Source: Escherichia phage DE3
Length of the DNA: 42,925 nt
Strand: one strand, 5' to 3'
Sequence record: EU078592
In this document: positions 10,262-15,467 of the stretch, piece after piece
Layout: every line of letters starts with the position of its first letter
Numbering within the stretch: position 1 is the first letter of the stretch
Position numbers and translations under genes: made by a program
The notes under the pieces: generated by a model
The model's database searches: none
Told to the model about the DNA's origin: nothing
What the model saw: the letters and a program-made list of their open reading frames with translations, nothing else

Positions 10262-10630
10262 TCAGGCGGCCTTGATAGTCATATCATCTGAATCAAATAT
10301 TCCTGATGTATCGATATCGGTAATTCTTATTCCTTCGCTACCATCCATTGGAGGCCATCCTTCCTGACCATTTCCATCATTCCAGTCGAACTCACACACA
10401 ACACCATATGCATTTAAGTCGCTTGAAATTGCTATAAGCAGAGCATGTTGCGCCAGCATGATTAATACAGCATTTAATACAGAGCCGTGTTTATTGAGTC
10501 GGTATTCAGAGTCTGACCAGAAATTATTAATCTGGTGAAGTTTTTCCTCTGTCATTACGTCATGGTCGATTTCAATTTCTATTGATGCTTTCCAGTCGTA
10601 ATCAATGATGTATTTTTTGATGTTTGACAT
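10262..10630 (-). CDS. ea10: Ea10 (122 aa)
   Basis: 122-aa ORF at expected position downstream of cIII. Confidence 0.85.
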   Translation of the reverse strand: MSNIKKYIIDYDWKASIEIEIDHDVMTEEKLHQINNFWSDSEYRLNKHGSVLNAVLIMLAQHALLIAISSDLNAYGVVCEFDWNDGNGQEGWPPMDGSEGIRITDIDTSGIFDSDDMTIKAA

Positions 10631-10812
10631 CTGTTCATATCCTCACAGATAAAAAATCGCCCTCACACTGGAGGGCAAAGAAGATTTCCAATAATCAGAA
10701 CAAGTCGGCTCCTGTTTAGTTACGAGCGACATTGCTCCGTGTATTCACTCGTTGGAATGAATACACAGTGCAGTGTTTATTCTGTTATTTATGCCAAAAA
10801 TAAAGGCCACTA

Positions 10813-11013
10813 TCAGGCAGCTTTGTTGTTCTGTTTACCAAGTTCTCTGGCAATCATTGCCGTCGTTCGTATTGCCCATTTATCGACATATTTCCCATCT
10901 TCCATTACAGGAAACATTTCTTCAGGCTTAACCATGCATTCCGATTGCAGCTTGCATCCATTGCATCGCTTGAATTGTCCACACCATTGATTTTTATCAA
11001 TAGTCGTAGTCAT
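10813..11013 (-). CDS. ral: Ral restriction-alleviation protein (66 aa)
   Basis: MTTTIDKNQWCGQFKRCNGCKLQSECMVKPEEMFPVMEDGKYVDKWAIRTTAMIARELGKQNNKAA. Confidence 0.88.
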   Translation of the reverse strand: MTTTIDKNQWCGQFKRCNGCKLQSECMVKPEEMFPVMEDGKYVDKWAIRTTAMIARELGKQNNKAA

Positions 11014-11091
11014 ACGGATAGTCCTGGTATTGTTCCATCACATCCTGAGGATGCTCTTCGAACTCTTCAAATTCTTCTTCCATATATCACC

Positions 11092-11391
11092 TCAAATAAG
11101 TGGTTTGCTGCCTAATTTAATTTTCTGGCGACCAACACAAGTCACACCCATTTCACTGCGTGGCTTGCTGTAGTAAATACGGTTCTGTTTACGCTCGACT
11201 TCTTCTGCCTTCTTGCAGCGAAGGCTTCCGAGTGATGCTGCTTTATCTGCTCTGACGCAACCAGAGAGCTTTAGCGCAATTTTTCGCGCCAGTGCTTCAT
11301 TACTGCGTCGCTCGGCAATAAGTTCTGCTCTGCGAGCTTTGTAGCGGCTTTTTGCCGTACCTTTGGATTCTTTCCAGACAATGGTTACCAT
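11092..11391 (-). CDS. N: N antiterminator, heterologous (phage 21-like), 99 aa with N-terminal arginine-rich motif
   Basis: MVTIVWKESKGTAKSRYKARRAELIAERRSN...; GGAG 7 nt upstream of this ATG; not the lambda N sequence. Confidence 0.85.
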   Translation of the reverse strand: MVTIVWKESKGTAKSRYKARRAELIAERRSNEALARKIALKLSGCVRADKAASLGSLRCKKAEEVERKQNRIYYSKPRSEMGVTCVGRQKIKLGSKPLI

Positions 11392-11501
11392 GATGGTCTC
11401 CTTTAAGTGGCTTTGGCGCATGACGCGTCGAGGTGCTTATCTTCTCGATCGCTGTCTTGTAGCTGCAATTCGCGCCATCCCCAAAACCACTCAAGTTCTG
11501 G

Positions 11502-11541
11502 TCTCAACGGTTAGGTTGAGAGTCCGTCGATGTTAAAGAGC
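11502..11541 (-). promoter_or_regulatory. nutL: nutL: boxA (GCTCTTTAACA, 11531-11541) and boxB hairpin (UCUCAAC-CUAACC-GUUGAGA, 11502-11521)
   Basis: Perfect 7-bp stem with 6-nt loop on the leftward transcript, boxA-like element 10 nt 5' of it. Confidence 0.75.
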
Positions 11542-11583
11542 CTGCCAATCTGTTCCGTTTGGCTTCCAGCGTCCTGCTGATGG

Positions 11584-11680
11584 CTTAAATTTAAGACTTC
11601 TTAATTTATTGGTCAAGTGCATTTTTGAAGAAAACTTAATTTTATGGGCGTGAATTTAGTTTGTCTTTGATTTTTAACGG
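11584..11680 (-). promoter_or_regulatory. OL/pL region of the heterologous immunity module; candidate pL -35 TTGACC (11611-11616) and -10 TAAATT (11588-11593) with operator-like palindrome between
   Basis: TTAAGACTTCTTAA at 11591-11604 and CTTAAATTTAAG at 11584-11595, read on minus strand. Confidence 0.55.
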
Positions 11681-11682
11681 GA

Positions 11683-11703
11683 AATAAAAAAGGGGCGAAA
11701 GCC
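11683..11703 (-). terminator. Intrinsic terminator immediately downstream of cI (minus strand)
   Basis: GGGGC-TTTC-GCCCC stem-loop followed by TTTTTTATTT on the minus strand. Confidence 0.7.
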
Positions 11704-11705
11704 CC

Positions 11706-12356
11706 TTAAGGAAGGTTTGCTAGCTTGGCATCAACGACAACGCCAATGATTTTACAGTTCCCATTGATTTCAATCATTGGGTATTGTGGATTGAGTGGTT
11801 TCAGGAATTTTCTACCGGCATCAATAACTAACTTTTTGAATGTCGCCTCGTTTTCTCCTTCAAGTTTGGCGACTACCAGCTTTCCATTACGTGGTTCGAC
11901 TTCTGGGTCGACGAGAATAATCATCCCCTCAGGAATACTCAGTCCTGCCGGGGCAGTCATTGAATCGCCTTTAACGTCGAGCCAAAAAGAGTCTTCAGAA
12001 CAATCTACCGTTGTGTCGTACCAGTTATCTATTGCACGCCTATGATATGGCTCTACAGCTTCCATCCAACATCCTGCGCTTACCCAACTAATTAGAGGAT
12101 ACGAACCTCTTGGATCATGCCTGCTGTGATAGGCAATGTTTGAAAGACTATCCTCTCCTTTCAACAGGTAATCAGGGGAGCACTGCAAAGCCTTGGCTAA
12201 GGCCAATAGGTTTTCGCCATTGGGCTCAGTTTCAGATCGCTCCCATTGGGAAATAGCAACATTAGACACGCCAACCATCTTGCCAAGGGCAGCCTGCCTA
12301 ATCTTGAGTTCTTTTCTGCGAGCGCGAATACGCTCACCCATCAGTTGTGTATTCAT
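11706..12356 (-). CDS. cI: CI repressor, heterologous (phage 21-like), 216 aa, HTH N-domain plus LexA/S24-like C-domain
   Basis: MNTQLMGERIRARRKELKIRQAALGKMVGVSNVAISQWERSETEPNGENLLALAKAL...GDSMTAPAG...; not lambda or 434 cI. Confidence 0.9.
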   Translation of the reverse strand: MNTQLMGERIRARRKELKIRQAALGKMVGVSNVAISQWERSETEPNGENLLALAKALQCSPDYLLKGEDSLSNIAYHSRHDPRGSYPLISWVSAGCWMEAVEPYHRRAIDNWYDTTVDCSEDSFWLDVKGDSMTAPAGLSIPEGMIILVDPEVEPRNGKLVVAKLEGENEATFKKLVIDAGRKFLKPLNPQYPMIEINGNCKIIGVVVDAKLANLP

Positions 12357-12436
12357 AGTTAAGACATCTTAAATAAACTTGACTTAAGATTCCTTTGGTG
12401 GATAATTTAAGTGTTCTTTAATTTCGGAGCGAGTCT
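12357..12436. promoter_or_regulatory. OR/pRM/pR region; pR -35 TTGACT (12379-12384), -10 GATAAT (12401-12406); operator-like palindrome TTAAGACATCTTAA (12359-12372)
   Basis: Divergent cI and cro ORFs separated by 80 bp; consensus-like sigma70 hexamers with 16-bp spacer. Confidence 0.7.
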
Positions 12437-12622
12437 ATGTACAAAAAAGATGTTATTGACCACTTCGGAACCCAGCGTGCTGTTGCTAAAGCACTAGGCA
12501 TTAGCGATGCAGCAGTCTCTCAGTGGAAAGAAGTTATCCCAGAGAAAGACGCCTATCGATTGGAAATCGTTACAGCTGGCGCCCTGAAGTATCAAGAAAG
12601 TGCTTACCGCCAAGCGGCATAA
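12437..12622 (+). CDS. cro: Cro, heterologous (phage 21-like), 61 aa
   Basis: MYKKDVIDHFGTQRAVAKALGISDAAVSQWKEVIPEKDAYRLEIVTAGALKYQESAYRQAA; HTH, not lambda Cro. Confidence 0.88.
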   Translation: MYKKDVIDHFGTQRAVAKALGISDAAVSQWKEVIPEKDAYRLEIVTAGALKYQESAYRQAA

Positions 12623-12628
12623 GCAAAT

Positions 12629-12669
12629 TGCTCTTTAACAGTTCTGGCCTTTCACCTCTAACCGGGTGA
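12629..12669 (+). promoter_or_regulatory. nutR: nutR: boxA (TGCTCTTTAACA, 12629-12640) and boxB hairpin (UCACCU-CUAACC-GGGUGA, 12652-12669)
   Basis: Same CUAACC loop as the nutL hairpin; stem differs. Confidence 0.7.
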
Positions 12670-12737
12670 GCAAACATCAGCGGCAAATCCATTGGGTGTG
12701 CCGCTATAACTCAATATCAATATAGGTAAATTAACAA

Positions 12738-13037
12738 ATGGCACAAGCAAGCTACAGCAAGCCAACACAGCGAGAAATTGATCGCGCTGAAACTGATTTA
12801 CTCATCAACCTGTCAACGCTTACCCAGCGCGGTCTGGCAAAGATGATTGGCTGTCATGAATCGAAGATAAGCAGAACGGACTGGAGATTTATTGCTTCGG
12901 TCTTGTGTGCTTTCGGAATGGCATCAGACATCAGTCCGATTAGCAGGGCTTTTAAGTATGCGCTTGATGGACTCACAAAGAAAAAACGCCCGGTGTGCAA
13001 GACCGAGCGTTCTGAACAAATCCAGATGGAGTTCTGA
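12738..13037 (+). CDS. cII: CII transcriptional activator, hybrid (heterologous N-terminal part, lambda-identical C-terminus)
   Basis: MAQASYSKPTQREIDRAETDLLINL...KKKRPVCKTERSEQIQMEF; only the C-terminal TERSEQIQMEF matches lambda CII as I recall it. Confidence 0.85.
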   Translation: MAQASYSKPTQREIDRAETDLLINLSTLTQRGLAKMIGCHESKISRTDWRFIASVLCAFGMASDISPISRAFKYALDGLTKKKRPVCKTERSEQIQMEF

Positions 13038-13059
13038 GGTCATTACTGGATCTATCAAC
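12983..13059 (-). ncRNA. oop: OOP antisense RNA (approximate; position inferred from lambda map)
   Basis: A-run at 12980-12985 (U-run on minus strand) preceded by GC-rich imperfect hairpin inside the cII 3' end. Confidence 0.4.
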
Positions 13060-13069
13060 AGGAGTCATT

Positions 13070-13969
13070 ATGACAAATACAGCAAAAATACTCAACTTCG
13101 GCAGAGGTAACTTTGCCGGACAGGAGCGTAATGTGGCAGATCTCGATGATGGTTACGCCAGACTATCAAATATGCTGCTTGAGGCTTATTCGGGCGCAGA
13201 TCTGACCAAGCGACAGTTTAAAGTGCTGCTTGCCATTCTGCGTAAAACCTATGGGTGGAATAAACCAATGGACAGAATCACCGATTCTCAACTTAGCGAG
13301 ATTACAAAGTTACCTGTCAAACGGTGCAATGAAGCCAAGTTAGAACTCGTCAGAATGAATATTATCAAGCAGCAAGGCGGCATGTTTGGACCAAATAAAA
13401 ACATCTCAGAATGGTGTATCCCTCAAAACGAGGGAAAATCCCCTAAAACGAGGGATAAAACATCCCTCAAATTGGGGGATTGCTATCCCTCAAAACAGGG
13501 GGACACAAAAGACACTATTACAAAAGAAAAAAGAAAAGATTATTCGTCAGAGAATTCTGGCGAATCCTCTGACCAGCCAGAAAACGACCTTTCTGTGGTG
13601 AAACCGGATGCTGCAATTCAGAGCGGCAGCAAGTGGGGGACAGCAGAAGACCTGACCGCCGCAGAGTGGATGTTTGACATGGTGAAGACTATCGCACCAT
13701 CAGCCAGAAAACCGAATTTTGCTGGGTGGGCTAACGATATCCGCCTGATGCGTGAACGTGACGGACGTAACCACCGCGACATGTGTGTGCTGTTCCGCTG
13801 GGCATGCCAGGACAACTTCTGGTCCGGTAACGTGCTGAGCCCGGCCAAACTCCGCGATAAGTGGACCCAACTCGAAATCAACCGTAACAAGCAACAGGCA
13901 GGCGTGACAGCCAGCAAACCAAAACTCGACCTGACAAACACAGACTGGATTTACGGGGTGGATCTATGA
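13070..13969 (+). CDS. O: Replication initiator O (299 aa)
   Basis: MTNTAKILNFGRGNFAGQERNVADLDDGYARLSNMLLEAYSGADLTKRQFKVLLAILRKTYGW... Confidence 0.96.
   Translation: MTNTAKILNFGRGNFAGQERNVADLDDGYARLSNMLLEAYSGADLTKRQFKVLLAILRKTYGWNKPMDRITDSQLSEITKLPVKRCNEAKLELVRMNIIKQQGGMFGPNKNISEWCIPQNEGKSPKTRDKTSLKLGDCYPSKQGDTKDTITKEKRKDYSSENSGESSDQPENDLSVVKPDAAIQSGSKWGTAEDLTAAEWMFDMVKTIAPSARKPNFAGWANDIRLMRERDGRNHRDMCVLFRWACQDNFWSGNVLSPAKLRDKWTQLEINRNKQQAGVTASKPKLDLTNTDWIYGVDL
13417..13545. repeat. ori: ori-lambda: four ~19-bp iterons (ATCCCTCAAAACGAGGGA-like) plus adjacent A/T-rich unwinding region, inside O
   Basis: Four direct repeats 13418-13504 followed by ACAAAAGACACTATTACAAAAGAAAAAAGAAAAGATTATT. 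Confidence 0.9.
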
Positions 13970-14667
13970 AAAACATCGCCGCACAGATGGTTAACTTTGA
14001 CCGTGAGCAGATGCGTCGGATCGCCAACAACATGCCGGAACAGTACGACGAAAAGCCGCAGGTACAGCAGGTAGCGCAGATCATCAACGGTGTGTTCAGC
14101 CAGTTACTGGCAACTTTCCCGGCGAGCCTGGCTAACCGTGACCAGAACGAAGTGAACGAAATCCGTCGCCAGTGGGTTCTGGCTTTTCGGGAAAACGGGA
14201 TCACCACGATGGAACAGGTTAACGCAGGAATGCGCGTAGCCCGTCGGCAGAATCGACCATTTCTGCCATCACCCGGGCAGTTTGTTGCATGGTGCCGGGA
14301 AGAAGCATCCGTTACCGCCGGACTGCCAAACGTCAGCGAGCTGGTTGATATGGTTTACGAGTATTGCCGGAAGCGAGGCCTGTATCCGGATGCGGAGTCT
14401 TATCCGTGGAAATCAAACGCGCACTACTGGCTGGTTACCAACCTGTATCAGAACATGCGGGCCAATGCGCTTACTGATGCGGAATTACGCCGTAAGGCCG
14501 CAGATGAGCTTGTCCATATGACTGCGAGAATTAACCGTGGTGAGGCGATCCCTGAACCAGTAAAACAACTTCCTGTCATGGGCGGTAGACCTCTAAATCG
14601 TGCACAGGCTCTGGCGAAGATCGCAGAAATCAAAGCTAAGTTCGGACTGAAAGGAGCAAGTGTATGA
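13966..14667 (+). CDS. P: Replication protein P (helicase loader), 233 aa
   Basis: [71 protein letters not shown]... Confidence 0.96.
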
Positions 14668-15467
14668 CGGGCAAAGAGGCAATTATTCATTACCTGGGGA
14701 CGCATAATAGCTTCTGTGCGCCGGACGTTGCCGCGCTAACAGGCGCAACAGTAACCAGCATAAATCAGGCCGCGGCTAAAATGGCACGGGCAGGTCTTCT
14801 GGTTATCGAAGGTAAGGTCTGGCGAACGGTGTATTACCGGTTTGCTACCAGGGAAGAACGGGAAGGAAAGATGAGCACGAACCTGATGAACAAACTGGAT
14901 ACGATTGGATTCGACAACAAAAAAGACCTGCTTATCTCGGTGGGCGATTTGGTTGATCGTGGTGCAGAGAACGTTGAATGCCTGGAATTAATCACATTCC
15001 CCTGGTTCAGAGCTGTACGTGGAAACCATGAGCAAATGATGATTGATGGCTTATCAGAGCGTGGAAACGTTAATCACTGGCTGCTTAATGGCGGTGGCTG
15101 GTTCTTTAATCTCGATTACGACAAAGAAATTCTGGCTAAAGCTCTTGCCCATAAAGCAGATGAACTTCCGTTAATCATCGAACTGGTGAGCAAAGATAAA
15201 AAATATGTTATCTGCCACGCCGATTATCCCTTTGACGAATACGAGTTTGGAAAGCCAGTTGATCATCAGCAGGTAATCTGGAACCGCGAACGAATCAGCA
15301 ACTCACAAAACGGGATCGTGAAAGAAATCAAAGGCGCGGACACGTTCATCTTTGGTCATACGCCAGCAGTGAAACCACTCAAGTTTGCCAACCAAATGTA
15401 TATCGATACCGGCGCAGTGTTCTGCGGAAACCTAACATTGATTCAGGTACAGGGAGAAGGCGCATGA
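14664..15467 (+). CDS. In-frame ren'-'ninI fusion created by nin5-type deletion (Ren residues 1-74 joined to lambda Ser/Thr phosphatase from ~residue 26)
   Basis: [30 protein letters not shown]...EGKMSTNL|[26 protein letters not shown]...GNHE...; junction ~14877-14886. Confidence 0.85.

What the first reader, a model, noticed from the sequence alone, without database searches (positions are those of the whole stretch)
11502..12669. nutL and nutR boxB hairpins share the loop CUAACC but have different stems
nutL (minus strand) UCUCAAC-CUAACC-GUUGAGA and nutR (plus strand) UCACCU-CUAACC-GGGUGA, each preceded by a boxA-like GCTCTTTAACA. The conserved loop with divergent stems fits loop-specific recognition by the arginine-rich motif (GTAKSRYKARRAELIAERR) of the N encoded here.
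Basis: partly seen in the sequence, partly recalled or inferred. Interest (0 to 1): 0.4.

Follow-up and report, generated by a model that had tools for sequence, protein, structure and literature searches.

The report
Phage 21 nutL and nutR sites

Summary
nutL (minus strand) is boxA 11531-11541 plus boxB 11502-11521. nutR (plus strand) is boxA 12630-12640 plus boxB 12652-12669. Both have the exact 11-mer GCTCTTTAACA followed by a hairpin with loop CUAACC and a different stem.

The window is the lambda-DE3 prophage of BL21(DE3). Its immunity segment is 100% identical to phage 21 (OL657228), and that record already annotates nutL, nutR, boxA-L and boxA-R at these positions. N residues 8-29 are identical to the peptide in PDB 1NYB, the solved phi21 N peptide-boxB complex with the CUAACC hexaloop.

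I compared 80 related viral loci:
- All 64 with the phi21-type arginine-rich motif keep both stems. Their loop varies only at positions 5 and 6.
- All 16 mosaic N genes with an HK620/CUS-3-type motif instead carry a CGAAAU-loop boxB.

Between nutL and nutR, 5 of 7 stem pairs differ on both sides and still pair. This supports the hairpin and supports cognate pairing between motif and boxB.

Whether recognition is strictly loop-specific was not tested here. Interest is low.

The parts
11531..11541 (-). nutL boxA, GCUCUUUAACA. This is the rrn-type boxA. GenBank annotates the 8-mer 11534-11541 as boxA-L.
   Evidence: Exact 11-mer: 2 copies in the window against 0.02 expected. Annotated in OL657228. 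rrn boxA is UGCUCUUUA followed by acaa (PMC2724277).
11502..11521 (-). nutL boxB hairpin UCUCAAC-CUAACC-GUUGAGA. It has 7 Watson-Crick pairs, loop 11509-11514 and a C-G closing pair.
   Evidence: Minimum-energy fold -8.0 kcal/mol, z -7.4. Annotated stem_loop nutL. Identical in 61 of 64 relatives with the same motif.
12630..12640 (+). nutR boxA, GCUCUUUAACA. With the preceding U it matches rrn UGCUCUUUAACA 12/12. It starts 8 nt after the cro stop codon.
12651..12670 (+). nutR boxB hairpin (U)UCACCU-CUAACC-GGGUGA(G). The loop is 12658-12663 and the closing pair is U.G.
   Evidence: Minimum-energy fold -7.6 kcal/mol, z -2.4. Annotated stem_loop nutR at 12652-12669. Conserved in relatives.
11092..11391 (-). 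Gene N of phage 21 (99 aa, MVTIVWKESKGTAKSRYKARRAELIAERR...). The arginine-rich motif, residues 11-29, is encoded at 11305-11361.
   Evidence: Residues 8-29 are identical to PDB 1NYB chain A. Residues 62-99 align to the lambda N C-terminus in 6GOV. Weak Pfam N_peptide hit below cutoff, E 1.8e-4. Annotated as antiterminator.
11588..11616 (-). pL promoter (TTGACC-17-TAAATT). The annotated start site is 11581, so nutL boxA begins 40 nt into the transcript.
   Evidence: Consensus scan. OL657228 annotation of the pL start and OL1-3.
12379..12406 (+). pR promoter (TTGACT-16-GATAAT) driving cro, then nutR, then cII.
   Evidence: Consensus scan, 10/12 match. OR operators annotated around it.
11706..12356 (-). 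cI repressor of phage 21 (216-aa ORF, P22 c2-like). It lies between the two nut sites.
   Evidence: Pfam HTH_3 at residues 10-64 and Peptidase_S24 at 87-208. ORF list.
12437..12622 (+). cro of phage 21 (61 aa), immediately upstream of nutR.
   Evidence: Pfam P22_Cro, E 5.7e-28. Annotation.

Best explanation
These are the nutL and nutR sites of coliphage 21. They are carried in the imm21 segment of the lambda-DE3 prophage.

Proposed mechanism:
1. Transcripts from pL and pR each contain a linear boxA (GCUCUUUAACA, the rrn-type sequence).
2. Nine to eleven nucleotides later comes a boxB hairpin with the hexaloop CUAACC.
3. The N-terminal arginine-rich helix of phage 21 N (residues about 8-29) binds the folded boxB.
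4. NusB-NusE binds boxA, and NusA and NusG join.
5. The resulting RNA-tethered complex makes RNA polymerase resistant to downstream terminators. These are tR1 to the right and the terminators beyond N to the left.

The two stems differ because only helix geometry and the loop fold are constrained. The loop, and above all its first four bases CUAA, is held constant because it specifies the cognate N.

Shown here: the sequence, the predicted fold, the position, identity to phage 21, identity of the motif to the solved complex, and co-variation of motif type with boxB type among relatives.

Inferred from established knowledge of lambda, P22 and 21: Nus factor assembly and antitermination itself.
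For: - The imm21 segment is 100% identical to Escherichia phage 21 OL657228 and to lambda imm21.
- That record annotates nutL, boxA-L, nutR, boxA-R, the pL start site, OL/OR and tR1 at the corresponding positions.
- N residues 8-29 equal the PDB 1NYB peptide, 22/22. 1NYB holds the phi21 boxB with the CUAACC hexaloop, which forms a UMAC GNRA-like fold flanked by a C-C pair (PMC12550061).
- Both hairpins are minimum-energy folds.
- The composite boxA+boxB pattern occurs twice against 0 expected.
- Stem pairing across nutL, nutR and natural variants: 97% of cells paired, 6 of 7 pairs with changes on both sides. Registers slid by 1-3 columns give at most 51% paired.
- In 80 IMG/VR loci, all 64 phi21-type motifs go with CUAA-type hexaloops at both nut sites. 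All 16 HK620/CUS-3-type motifs, joined to the same N C-terminus (about 97% identity over residues 34-99), go with a CGAAAU-loop boxB. BoxA is unchanged in both groups.
- The general N/Nus/nut mechanism and the ARM-boxB, NusA-boxB and NusB/E-boxA contacts are described in PMC8632103 and PMC2724277.
Against: There is no evidence against the identification. The limits are these:
- No binding or antitermination assay can be run here.
- Thermodynamic z-scores in a longer context are unremarkable.
- No Rfam family exists for nut sites, so there is no independent covariance-model hit.
- The relatives are close kin, so the constancy of each stem within nutL or within nutR may reflect relatedness rather than selection.
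- Loop positions 5-6 and the closing pair do vary (L007-15, L010, L012, L022, L035), so not the entire loop is fixed.
Confidence: 0.97

Rival explanations
1. The shared loop is conserved mainly for a host factor rather than for the N arginine-rich motif. One candidate is the NusA KH domains, which touch boxB in the lambda N complex. Another is RNase III or translational control at nutL.
For: NusA contacts boxB in the lambda N elongation complex (PMC8632103). nutL lies in the N leader, next to a very stable long hairpin that abuts the N ribosome-binding site.
Against: The host and boxA are the same for phi21-type and HK620/CUS-3-type phages. Yet the loop switches from CUAACC to CGAAAU exactly when the motif switches, 64/64 and 16/16. 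The solved 1NYB complex pairs this peptide with this loop.
Confidence: 0.1
2. The two hairpins are incidental inverted repeats or terminators, and the shared hexamer is coincidence.
For: Hexaloop hairpins with at least 6 pairs are common in the window (302), and 12 loop sequences recur. The 51-nt context z-scores are weak.
Against: - Neither hairpin is followed by a U tract, and the terminator scan does not list them.
- Each sits 9-11 nt after an exact rrn-type boxA, on the transcribed strand of pL or pR.
- Both are conserved in 64 relatives.
- The stems show compensatory differences.
Confidence: 0.01
3. The stem difference between nutL and nutR is functional tuning rather than neutral divergence. 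nutL has 7 Watson-Crick pairs and a C-G closing pair. nutR has U.G pairs at both ends. This could give different N affinity or different antitermination efficiency on the two operons.
For: Each stem is kept almost unchanged across relatives while the spacers and flanks change. The closing pairs differ. One relative (L022) changes both closing pairs, breaking the one in nutL and making a U-A pair in nutR.
Against: The relatives are closely related, so constancy is weak evidence. Predicted stabilities are nearly equal, -8.0 against -7.6 kcal/mol. There are no measurements.
Confidence: 0.2

Closest known systems
nutL and nutR of coliphage 21 (Franklin 1985; GenBank OL657228; NMR complex PDB 1NYB, Cilley & Williamson 2003)
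   Same: Identical sequence: 100% over window 11050-13100. The annotated features are the same. The N motif is identical to the 1NYB peptide, and the CUAACC hexaloop is the same.
   Different: Nothing in the nut region differs. The only difference is context: here the imm21 segment sits in an engineered lambda-DE3 prophage that carries lacI and T7 RNA polymerase.
Phage lambda nutL/nutR (boxA CGCUCUUA; boxB GCCCUGAAAAAGGGC, a GNRA-like pentaloop)
   Same: - Same layout: boxA, spacer, boxB.
- Same positions: after pL ahead of N, and after cro ahead of tR1/cII.
- Same protein logic: N-terminal arginine-rich motif plus a C-terminus that aligns to lambda N residues 74-110.
   Different: - The loop is a hexaloop, CUAACC, not the pentaloop GAAAA or GAAGA.
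- The stems differ between left and right here. From my own knowledge they are identical in lambda.
- BoxA here is the rrn type, GCUCUUUAACA, rather than CGCUCUUA (PMC2724277).
Phage P22 nut sites and gp24 (GACAA pentaloop, PDB 1A4T)
   Same: Same system type. The surrounding repressor and cro are P22-like (Pfam P22_Cro; about 84% DNA identity over part of the region).
   Different: The N motif and the boxB loop are different. P22 has a pentaloop with an extruded C (PMC12550061).
HK620 / CUS-3 / mEp213-type N and nut sites (found among the relatives)
   Same: Same boxA, GCTCTTTAACA. Same N C-terminal two-thirds (about 97%). Same hexaloop size, with a tetraloop-like core flanked by two pyrimidines: C-GAAA-U against C-UAAC-C.
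   Different: The motif is different (MTVVITYLADDNARNRRRARRQAQREQ...) and so is the boxB (UCCCGC-CGAAAU-GCGGGA). In that type the core stem is the same at nutL and nutR.
E. coli rrn antitermination boxA
   Same: The boxA sequence UGCUCUUUAACA is shared.
   Different: [quoted passage not shown]

Membership tests
Lambdoid N-utilisation (nut) site | Linear boxA matching CGCUCUUA / UGCUCUUUA on the transcribed strand | tested here: met
   Exact GCTCTTTAACA at 11531-11541 (-) and 12630-12640 (+), 2 copies against 0.02 expected. Reference boxA sequences from PMC2724277.
Lambdoid N-utilisation (nut) site | boxB stem-loop a few nucleotides 3' of boxA | tested here: met
   Hairpins begin 9-11 nt after the 11-mer and are the minimum-energy folds. 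97% of stem cells are paired across the sites, and slid registers give at most 51%.
Lambdoid N-utilisation (nut) site | One site in the pL transcript upstream of N; one in the pR transcript between cro and tR1/cII | tested here: met
   ORFs and Pfam domains. Promoter scan. OL657228 annotation of the pL start, OL/OR and tR1.
Lambdoid N-utilisation (nut) site | [quoted passage not shown] | tested here: met
   99-aa N at 11092-11391. The motif is identical to the 1NYB peptide and the C-terminus aligns to lambda N in 6GOV. The Pfam N_peptide hit is only sub-threshold, 22.4 bits against a 27.9 cutoff.
Lambdoid N-utilisation (nut) site | N- and Nus-dependent antitermination at downstream terminators | not testable with these tools
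   This needs genetics or in vitro transcription. From my own knowledge of the literature (Franklin 1985; Lazinski et al. 1989; citations seen) it is established for phage 21 and lambda imm21.
Phage 21-type boxB (CUAACC hexaloop, PDB 1NYB) | Hexaloop CUAACC on a 6-7 bp stem | tested here: met
   Both sites. The 1NYB loop is described as a CUAACC hexaloop in PMC12550061.
Phage 21-type boxB (CUAACC hexaloop, PDB 1NYB) | DNA identity with phage 21 imm21 | tested here: met
   100% over 2051 bases to OL657228, OM418625 and OM418627.
Lambda-type or P22-type boxB (GNRA-like pentaloop GAAAA/GAAGA or GACAA) | Five-base loop beginning with G and ending with A | tested here: not met
   The loop has six bases, CUAACC. 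So this is not a lambda-type or P22-type boxB, although the mechanism is the same.
Intrinsic terminator | G+C-rich hairpin followed by a U tract | tested here: not met
   The terminator scan does not list either site. The tails are CCAGAAC and GCAAACA.

The most novel reading that the evidence does not exclude
The natural variation seen among relatives might define the real recognition code of the phage 21 N motif. The variants are loop positions 5 and 6 (CUAACA, CUAACU, CUAAUC) and a changed closing pair in L022. On this reading, only CUAA plus helix geometry is required.

The hexaloop of the HK620/CUS-3 type (C-GAAA-U) could then be a structurally uncharacterised fourth N-boxB specificity class, built on the same 'tetraloop flanked by two pyrimidines' plan. 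In addition, the different closing pairs of nutL (C-G) and nutR (U.G) could tune N loading differently on the two operons.
Probability: 0.2. Interest if true: 0.25.

Novelty: already known. Interest (0 to 1): 0.05.

Why it matters
It matters little for discovery. These are textbook regulatory sites of a classical phage. They were sequenced in the 1980s, solved by NMR in 2003 and annotated in GenBank in 2022. Here they sit inside the most widely used protein-expression lysogen.

The result is useful as a positive control. The first-stage reader recognised a real RNA regulatory element, and its protein partner, from raw sequence. The comparative table also gives a clean natural illustration that the RNA-binding module of N and its boxB target are exchanged together, while boxA and the polymerase-binding end of N stay the same.

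Tried and rejected
- Rfam scan of 10500-13600 at E up to 1 gave only two chance snoRNA-like matches far below their gathering scores. There is no nut family in Rfam.
- My first composite pattern used too short a gap (5-15) and found nothing. The correct gap is 16-17.
- I could not read Cilley & Williamson 2003 (DOI and PMC1370434 not held) or Cocozaki et al. 2008 (PMC2446750). Statements about which RNA atoms the peptide contacts therefore rest on my recollection and are marked as such.
- I first assumed the window was wild phage 21. That was rejected. The first 25 kb is 99.9% lambda. Window 1-9000 is 100% BL21(DE3) with lacI and T7 RNA polymerase.
- My first regex for N in the relatives picked up an N C-terminal remnant downstream of a Nun-like gene instead of the real N. 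I corrected this by anchoring on the motif and checked it in L019.
- Searches for the boxA sequence in PMC2800207 and PMC4807359 found nothing. PMC2724277 supplied it.
- I did not use the large protein database searches, structure prediction or metagenome scans. The identity was already settled.

Full report

- On the minus strand: 5'-GCTCTTTAACA-TCGACGGAC-TCTCAAC-CTAACC-GTTGAGA-3'. BoxA is 11531-11541, boxB 11502-11521 and the loop 11509-11514.
- On the plus strand: 5'-GCTCTTTAACA-GTTCTGGCCTT-TCACCT-CTAACC-GGGTGA-3'. BoxA is 12630-12640, boxB 12652-12669 and the loop 12658-12663. An extra outer U.G pair (12651/12670) is possible.
- The quoted peptide GTAKSRYKARRAELIAERR is residues 11-29 of a 99-aa protein encoded at 11092-11391 on the minus strand. 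A longer 109-aa ORF exists. However, the ATG that follows the AAGGAG ribosome-binding site gives the 99-aa product annotated in GenBank.

**Is it more than chance?**

- As isolated 23-24-mers both hairpins are the minimum-energy fold: -8.0 kcal/mol with z -7.4, and -7.6 kcal/mol with z -2.4.
- Both persist when the 202-nt N leader or the 131-nt cro-cII spacer is folded.
- Stability is not in itself remarkable. In 51-nt context the z-scores are -1.2 and 0.0.
- The window contains 302 hexaloop hairpins with at least 6 pairs, and 12 loop sequences recur among them. A shared loop alone would therefore mean little.
- The significant feature is the composite. The exact 11-mer occurs twice against 0.02 expected. 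BoxA-N(10-25)-CTAACCG occurs twice against none in 100 shuffles.
- Each copy lies on the transcribed strand of a divergent promoter. pL is TTGACC-17-TAAATT at 11616-11588 (minus strand). pR is TTGACT-16-GATAAT at 12379-12406 (plus strand).

**What the window is.** Window 11050-13100 is 100% identical to Escherichia phage 21 (OL657228), lambda imm21 and lambda h434 imm21. The window as a whole is not phage 21.

- Its first 25 kb is 99.9% lambda over 75% of the length.
- Window 1-9000 is 100% identical to the chromosome of BL21(DE3) and its derivatives. It carries lacI (332-1423) and an 883-aa DNA-directed RNA polymerase (2026-4677) next to a cut integrase gene.
- It is therefore the lambda-DE3 prophage, an engineered lambda imm21 derivative. 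The nut sites lie in its phage 21 immunity segment.

**Already annotated and solved.**

- The phage 21 record (Feiss et al. 2022, PMC9119081) annotates these features: stem_loop nutL (window 11502-11521), boxA-L (11534-11541), the pL start (11581), OL1-3, OR operators, boxA-R (12630-12637), stem_loop nutR (12652-12669) and tR1.
- A search of PDB sequences with N gives 1NYB chain A, 'Probable regulatory protein N', identical over all 22 residues (N 8-29). The N C-terminus (62-99) aligns to lambda N in the antitermination complex 6GOV.
- PMC12550061 describes its RNA as a CUAACC hexaloop that forms a UMAC GNRA-like fold flanked by a non-canonical C-C pair. The same paper states that pentaloop and hexaloop boxB variants mediate specific binding of cognate N peptides.

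**Comparative test of 'conserved loop, divergent stems'.** I fetched 80 viral loci that encode relatives of this N. In each I located boxA and the following hairpin upstream of N, and on the opposite strand beyond the repressor.

- All 64 loci whose N carries the phi21-type motif (MVTI[IV]WKESKGTAKSRYKARR[AE]ELIAERR) have nutL UCUCAAC-CUAACC-GUUGAGA, or a one-base variant of it, 150 nt before the N start.
- 63 of those 64 have nutR UUCACCU-CUAACC-GGGUGAG or a one-base variant. For the remaining locus (L027) no nutR was found in the DNA held.
- Variation is confined to three places. Loop position 6 varies as CUAACA (13 loci) and CUAACU (1 locus). Loop position 5 varies as CUAAUC (2 nutL, 1 nutR). 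In one phage (L022) both closing pairs change.
- The first four loop bases never change.
- The 12 loci in which nutR ends in A or U at position 6, while their nutL keeps CUAACC, all have the motif variant with E at position 22. Their N must therefore accept both loops.
- Sixteen further loci encode a mosaic N. Residues 34-99 are about 97% identical to this one, but the N-terminus is different (MTVVITYLADDNARNRRRARRQAQREQ...). This is the type found in HK620, CUS-3, mEp213 and IME10.
- Every one of those 16 has the same boxA but a different boxB, UCCCGC-CGAAAU-GCGGGA.
- So the motif type and the boxB loop switch together, 64/64 and 16/16, while boxA, the host and the C-terminal part of N stay the same. 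This is the pattern expected if the motif reads boxB.

**Support for the helix.**

- Between nutL and nutR, five of the seven pairs differ on both sides and still pair: C-G/U-A, U-A/C-G, C-G/A-U, A-U/C-G and A-U/C-G.
- The two end pairs differ on one side only: U-A against U.G, and C-G against U.G.
- I aligned ten distinct boxB sequences. Of the stem cells, 97% are standard pairs and 6 of 7 pairs show changes on both sides. No shuffle reached the observed pairing or covariation score. Sliding the 3' arm by 1-3 columns drops pairing to 25-51%.
- The structure was read from these same sequences, so this control is generous. Even so, the compensatory pattern is plain.

**Mechanism.** This step is inferred from established knowledge.

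- In the lambda N complex, the N-terminal motif binds the boxB hairpin. The NusA KH domains also touch boxB, NusB-NusE binds the linear boxA, and the N C-terminus enters RNA polymerase and suppresses pausing and termination (PMC8632103).
- The boxA here, (U)GCUCUUUAACA, is the rrn form. It is not the lambda form CGCUCUUA (PMC2724277).
- Nothing in the window departs from this scheme. nutL lies 40 nt into the pL transcript and 111 nt before the N start codon. nutR begins 8 nt after the cro stop codon, ahead of the annotated tR1 and cII.

**On 'loop-specific' recognition.**

- The comparative data say that the loop core CUAA and the helix are what is held constant, and that the stem sequence is free between the two sites.
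- They do not show that N contacts only the loop.
- From my recollection of the 2003 NMR paper, which is not held in the library, the helix lies in the major groove along the 5' half of the stem and up to the loop. In that account there are few base-specific contacts, so recognition is largely of shape.

**Rivals.**

- A host-factor reason for the loop conservation is unlikely to be the main one, because the loop changes with the motif while the host stays the same.
- Chance hairpins or terminators are excluded by boxA, position, conservation and the lack of U tracts.
- Functional tuning by the different stems and closing pairs remains possible but untested. The predicted stabilities are nearly equal.

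**Verdict.** It is identical to the classical phage 21 nut sites, annotated in GenBank and solved in complex with this very peptide. Interest is low.

**Other things noticed.**

- The engineered nature of the window.
- A probably truncated cI start in the phage 21 GenBank record.
- A very stable hairpin in the N leader.
- Two mosaic arrangements in related phages.

Noticed in passing
window 1-9000 and the whole window: The window is not a natural phage. It is the lambda-DE3 prophage of E. coli BL21(DE3). lacI (332-1423) and the 883-aa T7 RNA polymerase gene (2026-4677) are inserted next to a cut integrase gene. The arms are lambda and the immunity segment is from phage 21.
   Followed up: yes
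window 14664-15467 (+): A 267-aa ORF begins like lambda Ren ([17 protein letters not shown]...) and continues into a serine/threonine phosphatase-like sequence (GDLVDRG...GNHE). It looks like the fusion left by the nin5 deletion of the parental vector. I judged this from the translation and my own knowledge and did not test it further.
   Followed up: no
window 11706-12356 (-); L001 2157-2729: The phage 21 GenBank record starts the cI CDS at Met27 (window 12278). The open frame starts at the ATG at 12356, right beside the OR operators, and gives a 216-aa P22 c2-like repressor. Its Pfam HTH_3 domain spans residues 10-64. The deposited CDS therefore probably lacks 26 N-terminal residues, perhaps because the mRNA is leaderless and has no ribosome-binding site.
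   Followed up: partly
window 11395-11494 (-): Between nutL boxB and the N ribosome-binding site, the leader folds into a long and very stable hairpin whose 3' arm ends at the AAGGAG of N. The 202-nt leader folds at -67.9 kcal/mol, z -3.97, and 0 of 200 shuffles fold as well. From my own knowledge this resembles the RNase III-sensitive structure of the lambda N leader, which controls N translation.
   Followed up: partly
L057, L058, L063, L064, L070-L081: These loci encode mosaic N genes. The C-terminal two-thirds is about 97% identical to phage 21 N. The arginine-rich motif is of the HK620/CUS-3/mEp213 type, and a matching boxB (UCCCGC-CGAAAU-GCGGGA) lies behind the same boxA. This is a module swap of the RNA-binding end together with its target.
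   Followed up: partly
L019 3971-4750, and similarly L016-L056: Many relatives (mEp235-like) have an N with the phage 21 motif but a different C-terminus (101 aa). It is followed at once by an HK022 Nun-like gene (L019 4303-4647), and then by an orphan fragment encoding the last ~31 residues of phage 21-type N (...IYYxKPRSEMGVTCVGRQKMKLGSKPLI). This suggests the nun cassette was inserted within the 3' end of N.
   Followed up: partly
window 12679-12705 (+): Downstream of nutR there is a G+C-rich hairpin (AGCGGCAAAUCCAUUGGGUGUGCCGCU) followed by an A/U-rich stretch without a clean U tract. It lies just before the annotated tR1 (window about 12717). Whether it is part of tR1 was not examined.
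   Followed up: no
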